A stretch of DNA of 64,000 bases, taken from the IMG/VR virus record IMGVR_UViG_3300047160_010630, positions 1-64,000 of that record; one strand, 5' to 3'. The position numbers were made by a program, and so were the translations under genes. Below the pieces are notes generated by a model that saw only the letters and a list, made by a program, of their open reading frames with translations, was not told where the DNA came from and did no database searches. The DNA comes from a virus. How positions within the stretch are numbered: position 1 is the stretch's first letter; each line of letters opens with the position of its first letter. Positions 4,807-17,313 of the stretch are shown here, piece by piece.

Positions 4807-5048
4807 GTAGGAAGATCCCAACCTACGGCCCGCAGCGGGCGTGGTGGTACCGCAACTGGACCGGGTGGCCCGTCGTGTTCGGCGGCGATGAGTTCTGCAA
4901 CCGGACGATCGTCTTCCGGTTCGTGCCGACGCGCATCGCCCTGGTGGTCAACCTGGAGCGGCCCATGCGCAACCGGCCGTGCGACGAGTGCCGGGCCGAC
5001 ATGTCGCCGGACCAGGTACGGGCTATTGCGGGTGTCCACCGCTACTGA
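4803..5048 (+). CDS. hypothetical protein
   Basis: GTGA overlap. Confidence 0.65.
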   Translation: MSRKIPTYGPQRAWWYRNWTGWPVVFGGDEFCNRTIVFRFVPTRIALVVNLERPMRNRPCDECRADMSPDQVRAIAGVHRY

Positions 5049-5054
5049 TAGAGT
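5026..5054 (+). promoter_or_regulatory. sigma70-like promoter for the 5087 gene and probably array 1
   Basis: TTGCGG-N17-TAGAGT. Confidence 0.55.
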
Positions 5055-5086: not shown

Positions 5087-5413
5087 ATGCTGAAGACCGC
5101 CAGCCTTCGCGACCGCACCCGGGCCAACCGGGCCGCCGCCAAGATCCGCCGCGAGGGCGGCGGCACCCTGGCCACCCACTGCACCGCCAAGGGCCTACGG
5201 CGCCGCCAGGCCAAGTCGGTGGCCGGTTCCCTGCGTGACAAGGCCGAGAAGCTCGGCATCGCGGGCACGCCGGGCGTCTTCTTCCGGGGCGGCTCCAAGC
5301 ACGACGGCAGCCTCTACACCGGCGAAGAGGTCGCCCGGATGGCCCTGATCTACACACCGCGCATCGAGGCGTACAAGATCGTCGCTGCCGAACTGCGCCG
5401 ACTCGCCAACTGA
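5087..5413 (+). CDS. basic hypothetical protein directly upstream of array 1
   Basis: RBS AGGAAGAGGA; its TGA forms the first TGAC of the array. Confidence 0.8.
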   Translation: MLKTASLRDRTRANRAAAKIRREGGGTLATHCTAKGLRRRQAKSVAGSLRDKAEKLGIAGTPGVFFRGGSKHDGSLYTGEEVARMALIYTPRIEAYKIVAAELRRLAN

Positions 5414-6320
5414 CTAGCCACTCCTCGCCAGGCCCGTCCGACCCGAACGACTAGCCAGCACGGCCCTTGCCAGCCCACGCGACTACCCCATCCCGCCCCA
5501 GCCTTTTCTCCCCCCACGACTTTTCTGCCCCAGCCCGGCCCTCCGGCCCGTACGACCACCCATGGCACCTCGTTCCAGCCCGCACGACTACGCGCCCCGC
5601 GACCCCTCCTTCCATGCGACTATCCCGTGCGTCCGTCTCGCTTCGTACGACTTCCCCTGCCAACACGAGCCCAGCCGTCCCAGGACGACAACCCACTCCG
5701 CGCGACAACCCAATCCGGACCGCCTCCCTCCGTACCGGCTCCCCGACAAGCCGGAGCAACGCGTCCCTGGCCCACCCACGCGACTTCCCAGCGCAACGCA
5801 CGACTCCTCGGGCCCTACTACCATTCGAGGCTTTCTGCCCCGTACCGTTCGACATGTCGTCCCACTCCCACGCCCTTCAACCCCCATGACTGCCCGGCCC
5901 GGGACTAAACTCTCCGATTCTGACGACAGTACGTCCCGCAACGATTCTGCCGACAAGCCAATCCTCCCCGACCCTGCGCATACGACAGGCCAGTACGATC
6001 CCGTCCGAACCATACGACTAGCCAGTGCGTATGTATCTGCCCACCCCCTCACGACAAGCCAACCCATCCTTTCTCCGCCCGACCCAGCCCACGCCCAGCG
6101 ACTACCCCCGCCGAACCCCCGCTCACCGGGCCGTACGACAGGCCAACGCTAGCCAGCTCCACCCACGTGACAGGCCAAGCCCCTGCTCCGCACCTCCAGT
6201 CGACATGCCAATCCACGCCAGGCCGCCCCGAACGACAAGCCATTCCCCGCCCAGCCACCCCGCACGACAAGTCGGCCCGGAACGTAGTGGAACAATCCAC
6301 TTCTCACGACTTGCCTGATC
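5411..6320. repeat. array 1: about 26 units YGAC-NN-[NNC-NN]n-N with 5-nt periodicity; candidate guide-RNA array
   Basis: Unit starts 5411,5448,5480,5517,5553,5585,5617,5648,5686,5703,5744,5781,5818 (degenerate CTAC),5850,5887,5924,5951,5983,6015,6052,6099,6136,6168,6201,6233,6265,6307; 21 of 26 lengths fit 7+5n. Confidence 0.9.
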
Positions 6321-6339
6321 GAGCGTCAGGTGCTAAGCT
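6311..6339 (+). promoter_or_regulatory. sigma70-like promoter overlapping the last array unit
   Basis: TTGCCT-N17-TAAGCT. Confidence 0.55.
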
Positions 6340-6368
6340 CCTCTCAGGAACGAGGAAAGGAAAAGAAC

Positions 6369-7115
6369 ATGGCAGTTCCCACCACCGACGAGCTCTACGC
6401 ATTCTTCGCGGAGTACACCGCCAAGCACACCCGCTGCGCCTGGGCGCACGACAAGCTCTCCATCGTGGCCCGGCGGGGCTTCAGGACCACCACCCCGGCC
6501 GTCAACAAGCAGCTGGGCGCCCTGATCGACGAGGGGCGGCTGGTGGCCGTCAGTATCGGGCACACCGGCATGGTGTTCTGGGACGACGAGGCCGAGGACC
6601 CCGTGTCGCTGCCCCTCGCCTACCTGGACACCTCCTTCACCGGCACCAGCTACGACAAGAGCTACGGTCAGATCGTCCTGTCGAAGGACCGCAAGAACTG
6701 CGCCAACCTCTGGGCCAACGGGGTGCGGGACTTCTACATCCTGGACACCAAGTACGCTGAACTCCTGGAGTACTTCCGCGAGGTCGCGGAGCAGGAGAAG
6801 GCCGAGAAGAAGCAGAAGAAGACCGAGGAGCGCCTGGCGCTGCGCGCCGCCCTGGAGGAGGTCGCCCCGCAGGGGGACGGCATCGACCTGATCAAGGCGC
6901 TGGACGCCCTCCTGGGCGAGTCGGTCGTGGACGTCCGCATGTTCTCGTCGATGTCCCGGCCGGACGAGTCGTACCCGATCCTGTCGGTCAACATCCGCAA
7001 GGCGGCCGACGTGGGCCGGTTCCTGGAGATCCTGCGCTCCGGCCTGCCGAAGGCCGAGGAGCAGGTCGCCGACATCATCCGGATGCCCGCGCAGCGAGAG
7101 GACGGTGAGAAGTGA
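6369..7115 (+). CDS. hypothetical protein
   Basis: RBS GAGGAAAGGA, ATG at 6369. Confidence 0.85.
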   Translation: MAVPTTDELYAFFAEYTAKHTRCAWAHDKLSIVARRGFRTTTPAVNKQLGALIDEGRLVAVSIGHTGMVFWDDEAEDPVSLPLAYLDTSFTGTSYDKSYGQIVLSKDRKNCANLWANGVRDFYILDTKYAELLEYFREVAEQEKAEKKQKKTEERLALRAALEEVAPQGDGIDLIKALDALLGESVVDVRMFSSMSRPDESYPILSVNIRKAADVGRFLEILRSGLPKAEEQVADIIRMPAQREDGEK

Positions 7116-7231
7116 TGGGCGCCGTCGCCGCCGTGGGGGTCGTCCTCCTCTTCCTCTTCCTGATGTCCTTGAAGCCCAAGGACCCCAAGAAGTAACGTAA
7201 CCGGCCCCGGGCTGTAGACATGCCTGCTGTC

Positions 7232-7831
7232 TTAGTCCGGGGCTCGGCGATGGTACGACCAAGGCCTTCCGTTGCCCCTATTACGGCCCCTGTAGGTTGG
7301 CGTCAAGGCATGGCAATTGGGACATAGTACTTGAAGATTTTCTGGCCTGTGATCAGTTCCGTCACCATTGACGTGATTGATTTCCAAAATGGATTTACCG
7401 TCGATGGGATGAAAGGCAGAAAATGAGCAGGCCTGGCATTTATAGTCGGATTTCTCCAACAGATACCTTCTCACAGTGTCCGACAAAATGTAGGCGCCAC
7501 CCCCGGACCAACTGCCGTCCAGCCACTGCTGAACTCGTTCTGCTGATTTATATTTTATGCACAGCAGGTGGCAACCATTGCACCTCCTGGTTCTGCGGGA
7601 GCTGACCGTGGCACCGCAGTCGACACACTGGCTGAGGGCCTTGGCCGCCCTCTTAGGGTGTCTAGAGTTGTTGACCTTCGCGGCGCACGATCGGGAGCAG
7701 TACTTGCTAGTCTTACGATCGGGCTTGAACTCGCTCTGGCAGCTCTCTCGCTGACACTTCATAAGGTTGCTCGTTTCGAATGAGGATGATACCCTTGCAG
7801 AGGCAAGGTACACCGGATTCGATTGTACCAC
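7232..7831 (-). CDS. HNH homing endonuclease (true start may be about 7762)
   Basis: CQAC...LEINHVNGDGTDHRPENLQVLCPNCH; low GC; opposite strand. Confidence 0.9.
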   Translation of the reverse strand: MVQSNPVYLASARVSSSFETSNLMKCQRESCQSEFKPDRKTSKYCSRSCAAKVNNSRHPKRAAKALSQCVDCGATVSSRRTRRCNGCHLLCIKYKSAERVQQWLDGSWSGGGAYILSDTVRRYLLEKSDYKCQACSFSAFHPIDGKSILEINHVNGDGTDHRPENLQVLCPNCHALTPTYRGRNRGNGRPWSYHRRAPD

Positions 7832-8070: not shown

Positions 8071-9627
8071 ATGACCGAGCAGAACCAGCCGAGCGACGAG
8101 CAGACCGCCGGTCTGTCCAACCTCCTCAAGGCTGCCGTCGCCAACGGCCTGGCGGCAGGCAACGGGCCGTCCGACCAGCTGGTGGGCAAGGCCGCCATCC
8201 TGTCCGTCCTGGCCCACCTCGGAGGCGGCCTGGTCGCCGAGGACGCCCTGGTCTTCAAGGGCACCAGCTTCGTCCTGCCGGAGCAGTACCGCGACCGCAT
8301 CCCGGAGGCCGTCGCGTTCCTGGCCGGGTGGCAGGAGCAGCAGGAAGCCGTCACGGACATGAAGCGGGAATTCCCGTACCGTCCGTACGACGTCGCCCAC
8401 GCCGCCCAGTCCGCCATGAAGACCATCTTCGGCTCCACCGGCACCGGCGTGGCGATCAAGCAGCTGTTCGGGGAGATCCCGCCGGAGTTCGTCTCCGTGT
8501 CCACCGGCGTGGACCAGACCACCCAGGTTCCGTGGAACCGGGTCAAGTTCGACATCGTCCAGGGGCACATCGACATCGGCTACGCCCACCACCGCGTCCA
8601 CGGCATCATCGGCCGCCTGACCGTCAAGGCCCCGCGCAAGTACCGCTCGGTGATCGAGGGCTTCTTCGCCGCCGTCGAGGCGGAGCTGAAGACCAACTCC
8701 ATCTACCGGGGCAAGGCCATCGTCCACGGCGGCTGGGACTCGATCCAGTTCCTGGACCTGGGCAAGGTCAAGCCCGAGAACGTCATCTACGGCGACACCG
8801 TGATGGCGGCCCTGGAGGCCCACCTGTGGGTGCCGATCCGGCACACCGAGCTGATGCGTGAGCTGGGCCAGCCGGTCAAGCGCACCGTCCTCCTGGAGGG
8901 ACCGTACGGTACCGGCAAGTCCCTGGCGGGCTACCTGACCGCCCAGCAGGCCGTCGCCAACGGCTGGACGTTCATCTTCGTCAAGCCCGGCGACGACCTC
9001 AACGAGGCCATGAACACGGCCAAGCTGTACGCCCCGGCCGTGGTGTTCTTCGAGGACATCGATGTCCTCCAGTCCAACGACCCGGAGGCCGTCTCCAAGC
9101 TGCTGGACAGCTTCGACGGCATCTCCGGCAAGGGCCAGGAGATCATCGTCGCCCTGACCACCAACAACCCGGGGCTCATCCACAAGGGCATGCTGCGGCC
9201 GGGCCGCCTGGACGCCCTGATCCACATCGCCGACCTGGACCGGGCCGGTGTCGAGAAGCTCATCCGGGCCAGCGTCCCGCCGGAGTACCTGGCGGACGAC
9301 GTGAACTACGGCGACGTGTTCGTGGCCTGCCGGGGCTACCTGCCCGCGTTCATCCGCGAGGTGGCCGCCCGCGCCTTCCGGTTCGCCATGGCCCGCGTCA
9401 ACGGCAAGCCGAACAAGCTGACCACCGGGGACTTCGAGGCGGCGGCGGGTGACCTGCGGGCCCAGTTCGACCTGATGACCGGCGCCCACGAGATCCAGCC
9501 GGACGAGGGCCTGAACAAGGCCTTCGAGAACGCCGTCCGGAGCGTCATGGGCAGCGCCGTCATCGCGGACAGCGACGGCGACCCGAACTACCAGATCAAC
9601 AAGTTCGTGTTCGACATCAAGAGCTGA
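8071..9627 (+). CDS. AAA+ ATPase
   Basis: Walker A GPYGTGKS, Walker B VVFFEDID, SRH LRPGRLD. Confidence 0.93.
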   Translation: MTEQNQPSDEQTAGLSNLLKAAVANGLAAGNGPSDQLVGKAAILSVLAHLGGGLVAEDALVFKGTSFVLPEQYRDRIPEAVAFLAGWQEQQEAVTDMKREFPYRPYDVAHAAQSAMKTIFGSTGTGVAIKQLFGEIPPEFVSVSTGVDQTTQVPWNRVKFDIVQGHIDIGYAHHRVHGIIGRLTVKAPRKYRSVIEGFFAAVEAELKTNSIYRGKAIVHGGWDSIQFLDLGKVKPENVIYGDTVMAALEAHLWVPIRHTELMRELGQPVKRTVLLEGPYGTGKSLAGYLTAQQAVANGWTFIFVKPGDDLNEAMNTAKLYAPAVVFFEDIDVLQSNDPEAVSKLLDSFDGISGKGQEIIVALTTNNPGLIHKGMLRPGRLDALIHIADLDRAGVEKLIRASVPPEYLADDVNYGDVFVACRGYLPAFIREVAARAFRFAMARVNGKPNKLTTGDFEAAAGDLRAQFDLMTGAHEIQPDEGLNKAFENAVRSVMGSAVIADSDGDPNYQINKFVFDIKS

Positions 9628-9666: not shown

Positions 9667-10194
9667 GTGACCTACCCTCTGGAGAAGGCCAGGAAGCTGG
9701 CCTACGAGATCTTCGACCGGATGAAGGACTGGTCCGACGCGCCCTACACGGACCATCTGGAGGCCGTCTGCGCGGCCATGGAGCCGTACGACGAGGATCT
9801 CCAGGTGGTCGGCATGCTGCACAGCATCATGGAGCACACGGACTGGGACCCGGAAACCCTTCGATATGAAGGCCTGCCGGAGAAGTCGATCGACACATTG
9901 AAGGCGCTGACGCGCGACCGGCGGGCACAGCCGTGGGCCATGTACTTCCGGCAGGTCCGGGCCGACGAGGACGCCACGCTGGTGAAGATCGCCTGCACGG
10001 CGCACAACTACCGGGCGGAGCGGCTGGCGACCCGCAAGCTCCTCCAGCGCAGCGAGCGCCTGATCGCCCAGGGGTTCGCCCAGCGGCACCTGTGGACGGC
10101 CGCCTACGAGGACGACCTGCGGGACGTCCTGGAGGCCGTGCACCCCGGTCTGCTCATCCGCGTGGACCAGCTGAAGAAGGACGGAAAACTGTGA
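9667..10194 (+). CDS. HD-fold (SpoT/Mesh1-like) protein with degenerate active site
   Basis: PYTDHLEAV, LHSIMEHT (vs LHDxxEDT), VKIACTAHN (vs VKxADxxHN). Confidence 0.75.
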   Translation: MTYPLEKARKLAYEIFDRMKDWSDAPYTDHLEAVCAAMEPYDEDLQVVGMLHSIMEHTDWDPETLRYEGLPEKSIDTLKALTRDRRAQPWAMYFRQVRADEDATLVKIACTAHNYRAERLATRKLLQRSERLIAQGFAQRHLWTAAYEDDLRDVLEAVHPGLLIRVDQLKKDGKL

Positions 10195-11113: not shown

Positions 11114-11186
11114 TGCCCTGTAGCTCAATAGGAAGAGCACTCCCGATGCGGGGGAGAGAAGGCGGTTCGAATCCGTCCTTGGGCAC
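11114..11186 (+). tRNA. atypical or pseudo-tRNA (loop GATGCGG, nominal anticodon TGC)
   Basis: Cloverleaf with normal D and T arms, but no U33 and an imperfect acceptor stem. Confidence 0.55.
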
Positions 11187-11240: not shown

Positions 11241-12911
11241 GTGGCACGCTACAACCAGAAGGCAGTCCGACCGGCCACCCAGCACGTGATGGCGACGACC
11301 AGCCAGACCGCCAGCACCGCGACCAAGACCTTCGAGGGTGCTCCCGGCTTCGCCAAGGACGCCAAGACCGAGCTGTTCCTGCGCGGCGCCGGTGCATTCG
11401 CCGGTCAGAACAAGTTCTACGAGACCGGCGACACGCACGACCAGCGCATGATCGAGCTGGCCCGCACGCTCGCCGTGACCGAGGACGGCTGGAACTGGCT
11501 CAACGGGTTCCTGCCGTGGCTGCGCGGCGAGGGCAACATGCGGACCTCCGCGCTGATCATCGCCGTGGAGTCGGTCAAGGCCCGCCTGGACGCCAAGCTG
11601 GCGAGCCCGCGCGGACACACCCACCGGGCGCTGCTGGACTCGGTCATGCAGCGTGCCGACGAGCCGGGCGAGATGCTGGCCTACTGGACCAGCACGTACG
11701 GCCGGTCCGTCCCGAAGCCGGTCAAGCGTGCCGTCGCCGACGCGGCGCAGCGGCTGTACAACGAGTACGCGCTGCTCAAGTACGACAGCGACGCCAAGGG
11801 GTACCGCTTCGGCGACGTCCTGGAGCTGACCCACCCGTCCCCGGCGGACAGCAAGCCGTGGCAGGGCGACCTGTTCCGGTACGCCATCGACCGGCGCCAC
11901 AACCGCAGCGACATCGCCGTCCCGGAGAGCCTGCGGACCGTCCAGGCCCGCAAGGCGCTGATGGAGGTGCCGGTCGACCAGCGGCGGGCCGTCGTGGTCG
12001 ACGGCCAGCACGGCATGCAGCGTCTCGCCGGTGCGGGCATGACGTGGGAGGCGCTGGCCGGGTGGCTCCAGGGTCCGATGGACGCCGACGCGTGGAAGGC
12101 CATCATCCCGAACATGGGGACGATGGCACTGGTCCGCAACCTGCGCAACTTCGACGAGGCCAAGGTCGACAACGCCGTGGCCCGCAAGGTCGCCGACAAG
12201 ATCGCCGACCCGGACGAGGTGAAGCGGTCGCGTCAGCTGCCGTTCCGGTACTTCTCCGCGTACAAGAACGTGTCCTCGCTGCGGTGGGGGCAGGCGCTGG
12301 AGGAGGCACTGGGGCACTCGCTGGCCAACGTCCCATCGCTGGACGGCCGGACGCTGATCCTGGTCGACCGCTCGCCGTCGATGTTCCCGGGGTACTTCTT
12401 CTCCACGAAGAACACCTCGGACATCTCGCTGGCGGACAAGGCGGCCGTCTTCGGCTCCGCCCTGGCCCTGCGCGCCGAGAACCCGACCCTGGTCGAGTTC
12501 GGCGGCACCAGCAAGGAGGTCGCCGTTCCGAAGGGCGGCAGCGTCCTGAAGATGGTGGAGTCGTTCGGCCGGAGCGACGGTACGGACATCCCGTCCGCCG
12601 TCCGGAGCTTCTACCGGCGCGGGCACCACACCCGGGTCGTCATCATCACCGATGAGCAGACCCAGCCGGGCTGGCTGTCGTCCAACATGGACCACTACGG
12701 GGGCTCGAAGCCGGTCCAGATCGACGATCTGATCGACAAGAGCGTCCCGGTGTACATGTGGAACTTGGCCGGGTACTCGAACGGTGCCATGCAGTCCGGC
12801 ACCGGCAACCGGCACCTCATGGGCGGTCTCCAGGACAGCTCGTTCCGGATGATCCCCATGATCGAGAAGGCGTCCGCGTCTCGCTGGCCGTGGGAGTCGG
12901 AGAAGAAGTGA
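11241..12911 (+). CDS. Ro60/TROVE-domain RNA-binding protein (Rsr-like)
   Basis: TROVE motifs (TWEAL, MALVRNLRN, SRQLPFRY) plus vWA MIDAS (LVDRSPSM, GTD, ITDEQ). Confidence 0.93.
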   Translation: MARYNQKAVRPATQHVMATTSQTASTATKTFEGAPGFAKDAKTELFLRGAGAFAGQNKFYETGDTHDQRMIELARTLAVTEDGWNWLNGFLPWLRGEGNMRTSALIIAVESVKARLDAKLASPRGHTHRALLDSVMQRADEPGEMLAYWTSTYGRSVPKPVKRAVADAAQRLYNEYALLKYDSDAKGYRFGDVLELTHPSPADSKPWQGDLFRYAIDRRHNRSDIAVPESLRTVQARKALMEVPVDQRRAVVVDGQHGMQRLAGAGMTWEALAGWLQGPMDADAWKAIIPNMGTMALVRNLRNFDEAKVDNAVARKVADKIADPDEVKRSRQLPFRYFSAYKNVSSLRWGQALEEALGHSLANVPSLDGRTLILVDRSPSMFPGYFFSTKNTSDISLADKAAVFGSALALRAENPTLVEFGGTSKEVAVPKGGSVLKMVESFGRSDGTDIPSAVRSFYRRGHHTRVVIITDEQTQPGWLSSNMDHYGGSKPVQIDDLIDKSVPVYMWNLAGYSNGAMQSGTGNRHLMGGLQDSSFRMIPMIEKASASRWPWESEKK

Positions 12912-15725: not shown

Positions 15726-16289
15726 ATGCGCGACTACCTCCGAGACATGAGCGAGTACCTGGGCGAGGTGGTGCCGGAAGGCGAGTACGTCGCCCAACTG
15801 GTCGCCCAGAACATCGTCAACGTCCTGCTGGAGGAGGACAAGGACCTGCTCATCGGATGGCTCACGCTGAAGGCCCCGGCCATCCTGACGGACGTCATCG
15901 TCCGCCGGTCCAACGGCCGTCGGCACACGCTGAAGATCCACCGGCAGCGGGACGAATTCTCCCAGGCGGCGGAGAAGTACGAGAAGGACCGCGACCCCGC
16001 CCACCTACGGCCCTTCACCTTCGAATACGTGGTCAGTTCCGACAACCTTCGAAGGAAAGTCGGCCAGATGACGGCCGGGGACTGCCTTTTCGTCGCCGAC
16101 ATGTACGACGACCTGGCCCGCAACGCCAAGATGCGCTCCGCCTTCCACCGGGCCGTCGCCCGGCGCCTGGCCCCAGGCCAGACGGTGGAGGATGCGTTCA
16201 CCGAAGAGGCCTACCTGCGGATGTACCACTCCATCGTCGGAGGCGGCCCGACCACGGCCGTGTCGCCCCCGAAGGCCCTGCCCTCCTGA
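15726..16289 (+). CDS. helical hypothetical protein; candidate partner of the Cas7-like protein
   Basis: RBS GGAAGAGGA, ATG at 15726; its TGA begins array 2. Confidence 0.8.
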   Translation: MRDYLRDMSEYLGEVVPEGEYVAQLVAQNIVNVLLEEDKDLLIGWLTLKAPAILTDVIVRRSNGRRHTLKIHRQRDEFSQAAEKYEKDRDPAHLRPFTFEYVVSSDNLRRKVGQMTAGDCLFVADMYDDLARNAKMRSAFHRAVARRLAPGQTVEDAFTEEAYLRMYHSIVGGGPTTAVSPPKALPS

Positions 16290-16582
16290 CTACCCGCCAC
16301 GGCACGGCTCCGCTCAGTTCCGACCGCATGACTTCCCTGTTCTTCCCACCGCCACCCACCGCATCCGACTATCCGCTGCATTCCCACCCGACCCGCCCGA
16401 CTACCCTTCGCGCGCCCAACCCACCCGGCCCACCCGGCTGACTACCTTTTTCACTCCCAGCCCACCCAGCCGACTACCCCTTCCTGTGCCGCCCCTCCCA
16501 ACCCCGACGACTTGCCGTGGTGTCCTCACTCTTCCCGCTCCGCCCGACATCCCGGTCCATACCGTCCCTGCCGACCAACCGT
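16287..16582. repeat. array 2: 8 units YGAC-NN-[NNC-NN]n-N
   Basis: Unit starts 16287,16329,16366,16398,16439,16471,16508,16545,16572; lengths 42,37,32,41,32,37,37,27. Confidence 0.92.
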
Positions 16583-16602
16583 CTAACAGATAAGGAACAG
16601 AT

Positions 16603-17313
16603 ATGACCAGCGTTTTCGCCAGCAGGATGCACCTCGCGTGGCCGCACCGCTTCGAGGGCACCCTGCACGTGCGCAACATCGCCGGTGGCACCCCCTCGGA
16701 CCCGAAGGTTGCCGAGGGCTGGCTGCGGACCAAGCTCACCGACAACCGGGACGACCTGATCCGCGAGAAGGTCGCCGAGGTCATGGTGGAGCGCGGCATC
16801 TCCGTGGAGGAGGCCGCCACCGAAGTCGACCTCCTCAAGCACCTCAACGGCTTCAAGAAGGACGACACCGGCCTCCTCCTGGACGGTCGCTGCCTCATGG
16901 CGGGTATCAAGGAGGGCGCCAACATCGCCCGCGCCTCCGGCAAGCTCAAGGACCGCTGGGGCCTCACCAAGAAGGGCGTGCTGGGCTTCGTCGCCGAGCA
17001 CATCGTCGTCGTGGAGGAAGTCCTCCATCTCTACGTCCCGGAGGAGGACGGCACCAAGCGCTACCTCACCACGCCGGACACCGTGGTCACCTCGTTCCCG
17101 AAGAACCCCCGGACCAACCAGACCGGGATCCAGCACACCGAGGTCGTCCTGGACGCCTTCCTGGACTTCACCGTCCTGACCGACTGGGAGTTCACGGACG
17201 ACGAGTGGGCTATGCTCTGGCTGACCGCCGAGCAGCAGGGTGTCGGTGCCAGTCGGTCCCAGAGCTACGGCCGGTACGAGGTCACCCGCTGGGACAAGGT
17301 GAAGACCGCCTGA
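16603..17313 (+). CDS. stand-alone Cas7/RAMP-like (RRM fold) protein
   Basis: FEGTLHVRNIAGG first strand, LLLDGRCLMAGIKE (cf. IPGSSLKG), TEVV..FLDFTV, C-terminal G-rich loop GVGASRSQSYGRYEV. Confidence 0.8.
   Translation: MTSVFASRMHLAWPHRFEGTLHVRNIAGGTPSDPKVAEGWLRTKLTDNRDDLIREKVAEVMVERGISVEEAATEVDLLKHLNGFKKDDTGLLLDGRCLMAGIKEGANIARASGKLKDRWGLTKKGVLGFVAEHIVVVEEVLHLYVPEEDGTKRYLTTPDTVVTSFPKNPRTNQTGIQHTEVVLDAFLDFTVLTDWEFTDDEWAMLWLTAEQQGVGASRSQSYGRYEVTRWDKVKTA

What the first reader, a model, noticed from the sequence alone, without database searches (positions are those of the whole stretch)
5411..6320. Larger orphan array of about 26 units with the same grammar, 10 kb away
Seen: 900 bp of C-rich, apparently non-coding DNA with YGAC spacings of 37,32,37,36,32,32,31,38,17,41,37,37,32,37,37,27,32,32,37,47,37,32,33,32,32,42 (21 of 26 fit 7+5n). 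No two units are identical, so this is not a simple tandem repeat: the register is kept while the NN positions vary. Inference: a trans-acting guide reservoir for the protein at 16603, giving about 34 guides in total. It probably shares a transcript with the 5087 gene from the promoter at 5026.
Basis: partly seen in the sequence, partly recalled or inferred. Interest (0 to 1): 0.9.

Follow-up and report, generated by a model that had tools for sequence, protein, structure and literature searches.

The report
Orphan VIPR guide-RNA array, C-rich type
The 900-bp C-rich stretch is a real, non-coding array of about 26 five-base-step units, best read as a remote ("orphan") guide-RNA array of the phage's own VIPR system, a CRISPR-related RNA-guided DNA silencer first described in 2026 preprints, here in an actinophage branch whose code seems to be built on C instead of G.

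Summary
Window 5411-6310 is non-coding and strongly C-rich. It follows the grammar YGAC + (NNsCC)n + NNN: 19 of 26 spacings are 2 mod 5, and the lag-5 autocorrelation has z = 5.3.

The same grammar fills the gap just upstream of the 236-aa gene at 16603. That protein is a Cas7-like RAMP and a remote homologue of the SUSP1 Vipr family (hhalign 88.7%).

In 78 viral contigs that encode a homologue, 52 carry such an array next to the gene. In 37 there is also a conserved 187-aa partner gene. Some have remote arrays too.

This matches VIPR systems (Vipr + vap + pentamer vrRNAs) and the "solo/orphan vrRNAs" already in print.

Differences from the characterised type II system:
- the fixed letters are sCC on the vipr strand, not GGY;
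- units are short (6-7 NN);
- units are separated by a 7-nt CGAC mark instead of a structured tail;
- the two G-reading loop residues of SUSP1 Vipr are replaced.

The functional RNA strand is unproven; I put about 0.75 on the C-rich sense strand. No targets were found.

This scan has already met the same C-rich clade on other DNA, so this is a known kind in a modestly new variant.

The parts
5026..5054 (+). Promoter-like site TTGCGG-17 nt-TAGAGT upstream of gene 5087; candidate start of a transcript that runs into the array.
   Evidence: Read from the sequence. The strict consensus scan did not call it. Inference only.
5087..5413 (+). 108-aa gene of unknown function (phrog_10890). Its TGA stop (5411-5413) is the first three letters of the first TGAC anchor.
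   Evidence: GC3-rich ORF with a Shine-Dalgarno site.
5411..6310 (+). Orphan VIPR-type array. It has 27 YGAC anchors and 26 units, mostly of 32 or 37 nt. Each unit is (N)YGAC-WW followed by (sCC-NN) x5-6. That gives roughly 170 variable NN dinucleotides in all.
   Evidence: Same grammar as 722 units in 52 Vipr-linked viral loci.
6311..6339 (+). Promoter-like site TTGCCT-17 nt-TAAGCT for the next gene. It overlaps the last, degenerate unit.
   Evidence: Read from the sequence. Not called by the strict scan.
6369..7115 (+). 248-aa gene of unknown function downstream of the array. No link to the VIPR module was shown.
   Evidence: Searches gave no family and no relatives.
15726..16289 (+). 187-aa helical accessory gene (vap-like). 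Its stop codon overlaps the first TGAC of the second array.
   Evidence: A homologue lies upstream of vipr on the same strand in 37 of 78 loci. The fold is helical with no match in the PDB.
16287..16602 (+). Vipr-adjacent array of about 8 units with the same grammar. It runs into the Shine-Dalgarno site of the vipr gene.
16603..17313 (+). Divergent Vipr protein: 236 aa, Cas7-like single-RRM RAMP, G-rich loop GVGASRSQSYGRY. It is the only copy in the 108-kb record.

Best explanation
The stretch is a non-coding array of VIPR guide RNAs (vrRNAs) that lies 10 kb from the phage's single vipr gene and is used by that protein in trans.

Proposed mechanism, by analogy with the characterised SUSP1 system:
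1. The array is transcribed, most likely as the C-rich sense strand together with gene 5087.
2. Vipr protomers bind one pentamer each. They hold the fixed sCC letters and expose the two variable letters (NN).
3. The CGAC-WW mark, which adds 2 nt every 5-6 pentamers (about one turn of the six-subunit Vipr helix), delimits or nucleates units of 6-7 NN. That is 12-14 informative bases per unit.
4. Each unit guides the filament to double-stranded DNA that carries those dinucleotides at a gapped spacing, probably in rival phages, prophages or host defence genes, and silences transcription there.

The orphan array roughly quadruples the phage's guide repertoire, from about 8 to about 34 units.

Shown here: the grammar, its statistics, the homology of the protein, and the gene-array association across many loci.

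Inferred: transcription, the strand, processing at CGAC, binding, the skip rule and the targets.
For: (1) The grammar and its statistics are.

(2) The same grammar abuts the 16603 gene.

(3) The 16603 protein folds with confidence (pLDDT 85). Its best structural matches are Cas7/Csm3 subunits (E 1e-6). Its C-terminal loop has the RAMP form G-h-G-x5-G-h-G. A profile of its family aligns with the SUSP1 Vipr family at 88.7% probability, E 2.6e-6, over 126 columns. The PDB chain 'SUSP1 Vipr protein' is among its best sequence hits.

(4) A pattern search for the array found it in many viral contigs, and 14 of those have the protein next to it.

(5) The reverse, unbiased test was a protein search of viral contigs. 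It gave 78 loci, 52 of them with a 5-nt-periodic skewed array within about 1.5 kb. Some arrays lie 2.5-7 kb away.

(6) The most distant homologue, L136, has textbook GGC/NN arrays with tails. This ties the family to canonical VIPR.

(7) The scaffold is conserved while the NN content is near-uniform (about 4 bits per dinucleotide). The NN content is unique to this phage. Whole units are gained and lost between related arrays.

(8) The published properties of VIPR and of solo vrRNAs come.

(9) Evidence for the C-rich strand:
- C is on the vipr strand in all but one locus with this grammar, whereas in SUSP1 the GG strand is the vipr strand.
- Arrays run straight into the Shine-Dalgarno site and start codon of the next gene, so that strand must be transcribed.
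- In L117 the three inverted or remote arrays each have a -10 box and a shared leader on the C-rich 5' side.
- The residues that read G1 and G2 in SUSP1 Vipr (D177, W178) are A and S here.
Against: - There is no expression data. No RNA run holds this DNA.
- No natural target was found in the phage itself, in 1.87 Mb of related contigs, in viral contigs, or convincingly in 401 Streptomyces genomes.
- Units carry only 12-14 informative bases, fewer than the 18-32 of the characterised vrRNAs.
- There is no structured 3' tail.
- All published motifs I could read place G, not C, at the fixed positions, so the functional RNA could be the opposite strand.
- Homology to Vipr is remote (about 21% identity over the aligned part).
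- The promoter and terminator scans across 66 arrays were uninformative.
Confidence: 0.8

Rival explanations
1. It is the same VIPR array, but the functional vrRNAs come from the opposite, G-rich strand. They would be (GGs-NN)n with a GTCG mark, that is, the published 'NNNGG' type, transcribed antisense to the neighbouring genes.
For: - Every vrRNA motif named in the first VIPR paper ends in G: YNNGG, NNNGG, YNNNG, NNNNG.
- On the minus strand the order 'two strong letters, one weak letter, NN' matches GGY/NN exactly.
- In L117 the G-rich strand is the vipr strand.
- A few weak terminator-like hairpins lie on the G-rich 3' side.
Against: - The C-rich strand is co-oriented with vipr in about 50 loci against 1.
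- There is no room for an antisense promoter between the arrays and the next gene's Shine-Dalgarno site.
- The L117 leaders and -10 boxes sit on the C-rich 5' side.
- The weak position would be mostly purine, whereas the SUSP1 pocket excludes purines.
- The G-contacting residues are not conserved.
- Non-GG motifs have already been reported.
Confidence: 0.17
2. It is a C-rich, G-poor untranslated RNA that serves as a Rho loading (rut) or anti-termination region, or as a long regulatory leader or trailer, with no guide function.
For: There are 900 nt of untranslated sequence with C far above G, lying between two co-directional genes.
Against: - Rho sites need no exact 5-nt register, no CGAC mark and no hypervariable dinucleotides.
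- The array is tied to a RAMP gene in dozens of loci, including arrays at the ends of operons and inverted ones.
Confidence: 0.02
3. It is a set of DNA-level binding sites (iterons, an origin or a partition site) for a phage DNA-binding protein.
For: There are many copies of a short motif at roughly 3 to 3.5 helical turns.
Against: - The strand asymmetry extends through the spacers.
- No Rep or Par gene is associated with it.
- The conserved neighbour is an RNA-binding RAMP.
- The phase is 5 nt, not 10-11.
Confidence: 0.01

Closest known systems
Type II VIPR of Escherichia phage SUSP1 (Vipr + vap1 + four vrRNAs; bioRxiv 10.64898/2026.04.26.720920 and .720927)
   Same: - A lone Cas7-like RAMP.
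- A small accessory gene.
- Non-coding arrays of 5-nt steps with three constrained and two hypervariable letters.
- A phage setting.
- The loop arginine (R179 equivalent) and the FGR(F/Y) motif are kept.
   Different: - The fixed letters are sCC on the vipr strand, whereas SUSP1 has GGY on the vipr strand.
- Units have 6-7 NN rather than 9-16.
- There is no pseudoknot tail and no promoter for each RNA; a 7-nt CGAC-WW mark takes their place.
- The protein is 236 aa against 195 aa.
- D177 and W178 are replaced.
- The accessory protein has an unrelated helical fold.
Solo/orphan vrRNAs (bioRxiv 10.64898/2026.10.15.759431)
   Same: Guide genes sit away from, or without, a vipr gene and act in trans.
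   Different: The published cases are 1-2 canonical vrRNAs in vipr-less Enterobacteriaceae phages and satellites. Here a 26-unit array sits in a phage that keeps its own vipr.
'Staggered' vrRNA arrays (fig. S18 legend of the first VIPR paper) and the non-canonical pentamer motifs found with a genomic language model (bioRxiv 10.64898/2026.10.21.760802)
   Same: Units are back to back without tails. Fixed trinucleotides other than GGY are linked to Vipr-like folds.
   Different: The motifs named in the text are GAC, CAC, WGT and TGH, each repeated about 10 times. I could not see the figures, so I cannot say whether sCC with a CGAC mark is among them.
Class 1 CRISPR Cas7-crRNA backbones
   Same: A RAMP fold with a G-rich loop and thumb that polymerises along a guide RNA.
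   Different: - There are no long identical repeats, no spacers and no cas1/cas2.
- The period is 5 nt, not 6.
- The variable information is gapped.
TIGR-Tas arrays
   Same: A small phage-borne guide array with short periodic structure.
   Different: TIGR arrays have an 18-nt period and a Nop-domain protein. Neither is present here.

Membership tests
VIPR system | A Vipr protein: a minimal RAMP (RRM core, G-rich loop, thumb) related to the published Vipr proteins | tested here: met
   Foldseek best hits are Cas7/Csm3, E 1e-6. hhalign against the SUSP1 Vipr family gives 88.7%, E 2.6e-6. The protein lies at 16603-17313, outside the finding's coordinates.
VIPR system | vrRNA region made of tandem pentamers with three constrained and two hypervariable positions | tested here: met
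   Lag-5 z = 5.3. Position 5 is C in about 90% of pentamers, and positions 1-2 are near-uniform.
VIPR system | Constrained letters are GGY (or a published variant ending in G) on the transcribed strand | tested here: inconclusive
   The sense strand reads sCC and the antisense strand reads GGs. The strand is unproven.
VIPR system | An array lies next to the vipr gene | tested here: met
   This holds for the second array (16287-16602) and for 52 of 78 homologous loci. The array under study is 10 kb away, that is, orphan.
VIPR system | A conserved accessory (vap) gene | tested here: met
   A 187-aa gene lies upstream in 37 of 78 loci. Its fold matches nothing, so it cannot be equated with vap1-6.
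VIPR system (type II) | An invariant structured 3' tail after 9-16 repeats | tested here: not met
   Units have 5-7 repeats and only a 7-nt CGAC mark. There was no Rfam hit.
VIPR system | Small RNAs are expressed and bound by Vipr | not testable with these tools
   No RNA run holds this DNA.
VIPR system | Guides match natural targets by the 1-nt skip rule | tested here: inconclusive
   There was no excess over controls. The units are too short for a clean search.
CRISPR array | Near-identical direct repeats of 25-40 nt alternating with unique spacers | tested here: not met
   Only a 4-9-nt core recurs. TRF finds no such array.
TIGR-Tas | An 18-nt periodic array and a Nop-domain protein | tested here: not met
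   The period is 5 nt. The partner protein is a RAMP.

The most novel reading that the evidence does not exclude
This actinophage branch of VIPR uses a cytosine-based code. A sense-strand vrRNA precursor of sCC-NN pentamers is read by a Vipr whose two guanine-reading loop residues have been replaced. The precursor is organised as long arrays of one-helical-turn guides (6-7 NN) set off by a CGAC-WW mark, and remote arrays multiply the repertoire. If so, the protein-RNA recognition code of VIPR is itself evolvable, and very short gapped guides are enough for function.
Probability: 0.5. Interest if true: 0.6.

Novelty: new variant of a known kind. Interest (0 to 1): 0.45.

Why it matters
VIPR is a newly described RNA-guided DNA-recognition system. 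It has been proposed as an ancestor of CRISPR effector proteins and as a compact programmable tool.

A large, well-populated actinophage clade has more than 1,200 protein clusters, and dozens of its loci carry arrays. In this clade the fixed scaffold letters, the base-reading residues and the array architecture all differ from the characterised system. That gives a natural experiment on how Vipr reads its RNA.

It also shows that phages can keep big guide arrays far from the effector gene.

For this particular window the practical value is annotation: 900 bp of 'junk' becomes about 26 candidate guides.

Tried and rejected
- **Coding region:** rejected. There is no 3-base periodicity and no GC3 bias.
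- **Simple tandem repeat:** TRF finds only two short local duplications.
- **Known RNA families and tRNAs in the array:** none.
- **DNA similarity to deposited phages:** none. The flanking proteins have almost no relatives.
- **Ro60-bearing Streptomyces phages Alone3 and GiJojo:** different architecture and no such array.
- **G-rich region at 95.2-96.0 kb of the record:** different repeats, unrelated.
- **RNA evidence:** no RNA holder is listed for this DNA. Laying four soil-metagenome DNA runs gave only low-depth identical contigs and nothing usable on variation.
- **Promoter and terminator scans:** uninformative both on the window and across 66 arrays in both orientations.
- **Target searches:**
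  - Own genome, skips 0-3: one hit each.
  - 1.87 Mb of fetched loci: 3 hits at skip 1, against 0-3 in shuffled controls.
  - Viral contigs, 18-base guide of unit 6052: none.
  - 401 Streptomyces genomes, 16-base guide of unit 5703: 5 hits against 1 control hit. Four of them are one conserved motif (KKGAPVGP) of a zinc alcohol dehydrogenase, which I read as chance.
- **Codon-phase likelihood of the NN letters:** no better than uniform.
- **Guides shared with other phages:** none.
- **Stop codon of the upstream gene overlapping the first TGAC:** seen in only 14 of 37 loci, so it is not a rule.
- **vap fold:** no structural match.
- **Atlas search for the 248-aa neighbour:** nothing usable.
- **First genome-contig scan with the single protein:** found nothing. 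The profile scan found 18 actinobacterial loci.

Full report
**What is there.**
Window 5411-6310 lies between a 108-aa gene (5087-5413) and a 248-aa gene (6369-7115), both on the + strand. It is 66% G+C with a GC skew of -0.40 and has no 3-base periodicity.

It contains 27 YGAC anchors. After each anchor come pentamers whose fifth letter is almost always C and whose fourth letter is mostly C. The third letter is weakly C/G/T, and the first two letters are close to uniform. Three further letters then lead into the next YGAC.

Units are therefore 7+5n long, mostly 32 or 37 nt. I count 19 of 26 spacings in that class (p = 8e-9).

Against Markov simulations the lag-5 identity (z 5.3), the lag-32 identity (z 6.7) and the motif counts are far outside chance. 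The motif CGACWWSCC occurs 14 times against 0.19 expected.

Only one other place in the 108-kb record has this signal: 16287-16602, about 8 units.

**The partner protein.**
The second array ends at the Shine-Dalgarno site of a 236-aa gene (16603-17313). The protein has no Pfam or PHROG family but more than 1,255 relatives, all unnamed, in phage contigs and actinobacterial genomes.

With an alignment of relatives it folds confidently (pLDDT 85). Its best structural matches are Cas7 family subunits of type VII and type III CRISPR complexes (E 1e-6). Its C-terminal loop has the RAMP signature.

A sequence profile weakly hit the PDB chain named 'SUSP1 Vipr protein'. That led to the 2026 preprints on VIPR systems.

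I fetched SUSP1, collected its Vipr family and compared the two profiles. The result was 88.7% probability, E 2.6e-6, over 126 columns. The alignment covers helix 1, the thumb region and the G-rich loop.

**Association, tested both ways.**
A degenerate DNA pattern made of three consecutive units found 54 viral contigs. About 16 of them had C-rich, 5-nt-periodic arrays. In 14 of these a homologue of the 236-aa protein lay next to the array on the same strand.

In the other direction, a protein-profile scan returned 78 viral loci, and 52 had such an array within about 1.5 kb of the gene. Arrays lie between a conserved 187-aa gene and vipr, or downstream of vipr, or upstream of both. In L091, L117, L119 and L132 they also lie 2.5-7 kb away.

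The 187-aa gene (window 15726-16289) is upstream of vipr in 37 of 78 loci. It is helical and matches no solved fold.

A logo of 722 units from 52 loci reproduces the window's grammar. The mark is usually one base longer elsewhere, with spacings of 3 mod 5, than in this phage, where they are 2 mod 5.

The most distant homologue, L136 (24% identity), has textbook GGC-NN arrays with tails on the vipr strand. This links the family to canonical VIPR.

**Guide-like behaviour.**
- Related arrays (L012, L055, L018) share flanks and many units but differ by gain or loss of whole units.
- The NN letters carry close to 4 bits per dinucleotide in a 66% G+C genome.
- No unit of this phage shares its NN string with any of 385 units from other loci.

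**Which strand is the RNA?**
In SUSP1 the GG-rich strand is the vipr strand. Here the CC-rich strand is the vipr strand in every locus with this grammar except L117.

Arrays run without a gap into the ribosome-binding site and start codon of the next gene, which is vipr or another gene. That strand must therefore be transcribed, and an antisense promoter has no room.

In L117 the arrays are inverted relative to vipr. Each of its three arrays has a -10 box and a related leader on the C-rich 5' side. One has a good divergent promoter (TTGCGG-16-TATCAT) that points into the array as C-rich RNA.

The SUSP1 residues that read the two guanines (D177, W178) are alanine and serine in this family, while the following arginine is kept. 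Non-GG motifs are already reported for other Vipr-like clades.

Against this, every motif named in the first paper ends in G. The simple promoter and terminator scans did not help. I put 0.75 on the C-rich strand.

**Targets.**
None was found. With 12-14 informative bases per unit, the searches open to me have little power. The one apparent cluster is a dehydrogenase motif in four Streptomyces genomes, which I treat as chance.

**Verdict.**
The stretch is an orphan array of a VIPR system. The kind is in print, including solo vrRNAs, and this scan has already reported the same C-rich actinophage clade on other DNA.

What is not in the texts I could read:
- the sCC scaffold on the sense strand;
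- the short units delimited by CGAC;
- a 26-unit remote array in a phage that keeps its own vipr.

Expression, strand, processing, binding and targets all remain to be shown.

Noticed in passing
L117:1-3000 and 6900-7630: This is the one viral locus where arrays of this grammar are inverted relative to vipr. All three arrays carry a related leader and a -10 box on the C-rich 5' side. The vap-vipr operon ends in a classic hairpin followed by a T-run, shared with the convergent array.
   Followed up: partly
L136:3600-5260: The most distant homologue of the window's Vipr (24% identity) is flanked by canonical GGC-NN vrRNAs of about 14 repeats, each with a short tail, on the vipr strand.
   Followed up: partly
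L058 (PP395641.1 37.7-39.0 kb): The record named Microcystis phage Mae-JY09 is 72% G+C at this locus. It carries this actinophage-type Vipr followed by a C-rich CGAC array and a strong terminal hairpin. The host label looks doubtful.
   Followed up: no
window 11241-12911 and 11115-11186: A Ro60/TROVE-like RNA-binding protein (PF05731, phrog_850) lies just after a tRNA-Ala. The AT-richer stretch at 10.3-11.1 kb upstream may hold its Y-RNA-like partners, as another note on this genome suggests.
   Followed up: no
outside the window: G000 C1 95,300-95,800: A non-coding region holds several different short repeats: (CTCTCC)n, three copies of GTAACCCTT, (AGT)n and TA-rich palindromes. It may be a genome end or an origin. 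It is unrelated to the pentamer arrays.
   Followed up: no
window 7232-7831 (-), 8071-9627, 9667-10194: An HNH endonuclease lies on the opposite strand. It is followed by an AAA ATPase (phrog_10440) and an HD-type phosphohydrolase-like gene.
   Followed up: no
ends of arrays in L033, L056, L119, L132 and window 6290-6300: Arrays often end with the words ATCCACAAAGGAG, which supply the ribosome-binding site of the next gene. The window's orphan array keeps only AATCCAC.
   Followed up: no
window 5261 / 6580: One soil-metagenome contig (run X3) joins 5261 to 6580 with 33 unrelated letters between. This may be a relative with different content in place of the array. It is a single low-depth contig.
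   Followed up: no
L157, L159, L160 (Streptomyces chromosomes): The 16-base gapped guide of unit 5703 spells KKGAPVGP at the N-terminus of a zinc alcohol dehydrogenase in four Streptomyces species, with the skipped bases at wobble positions. It is probably chance.
   Followed up: partly
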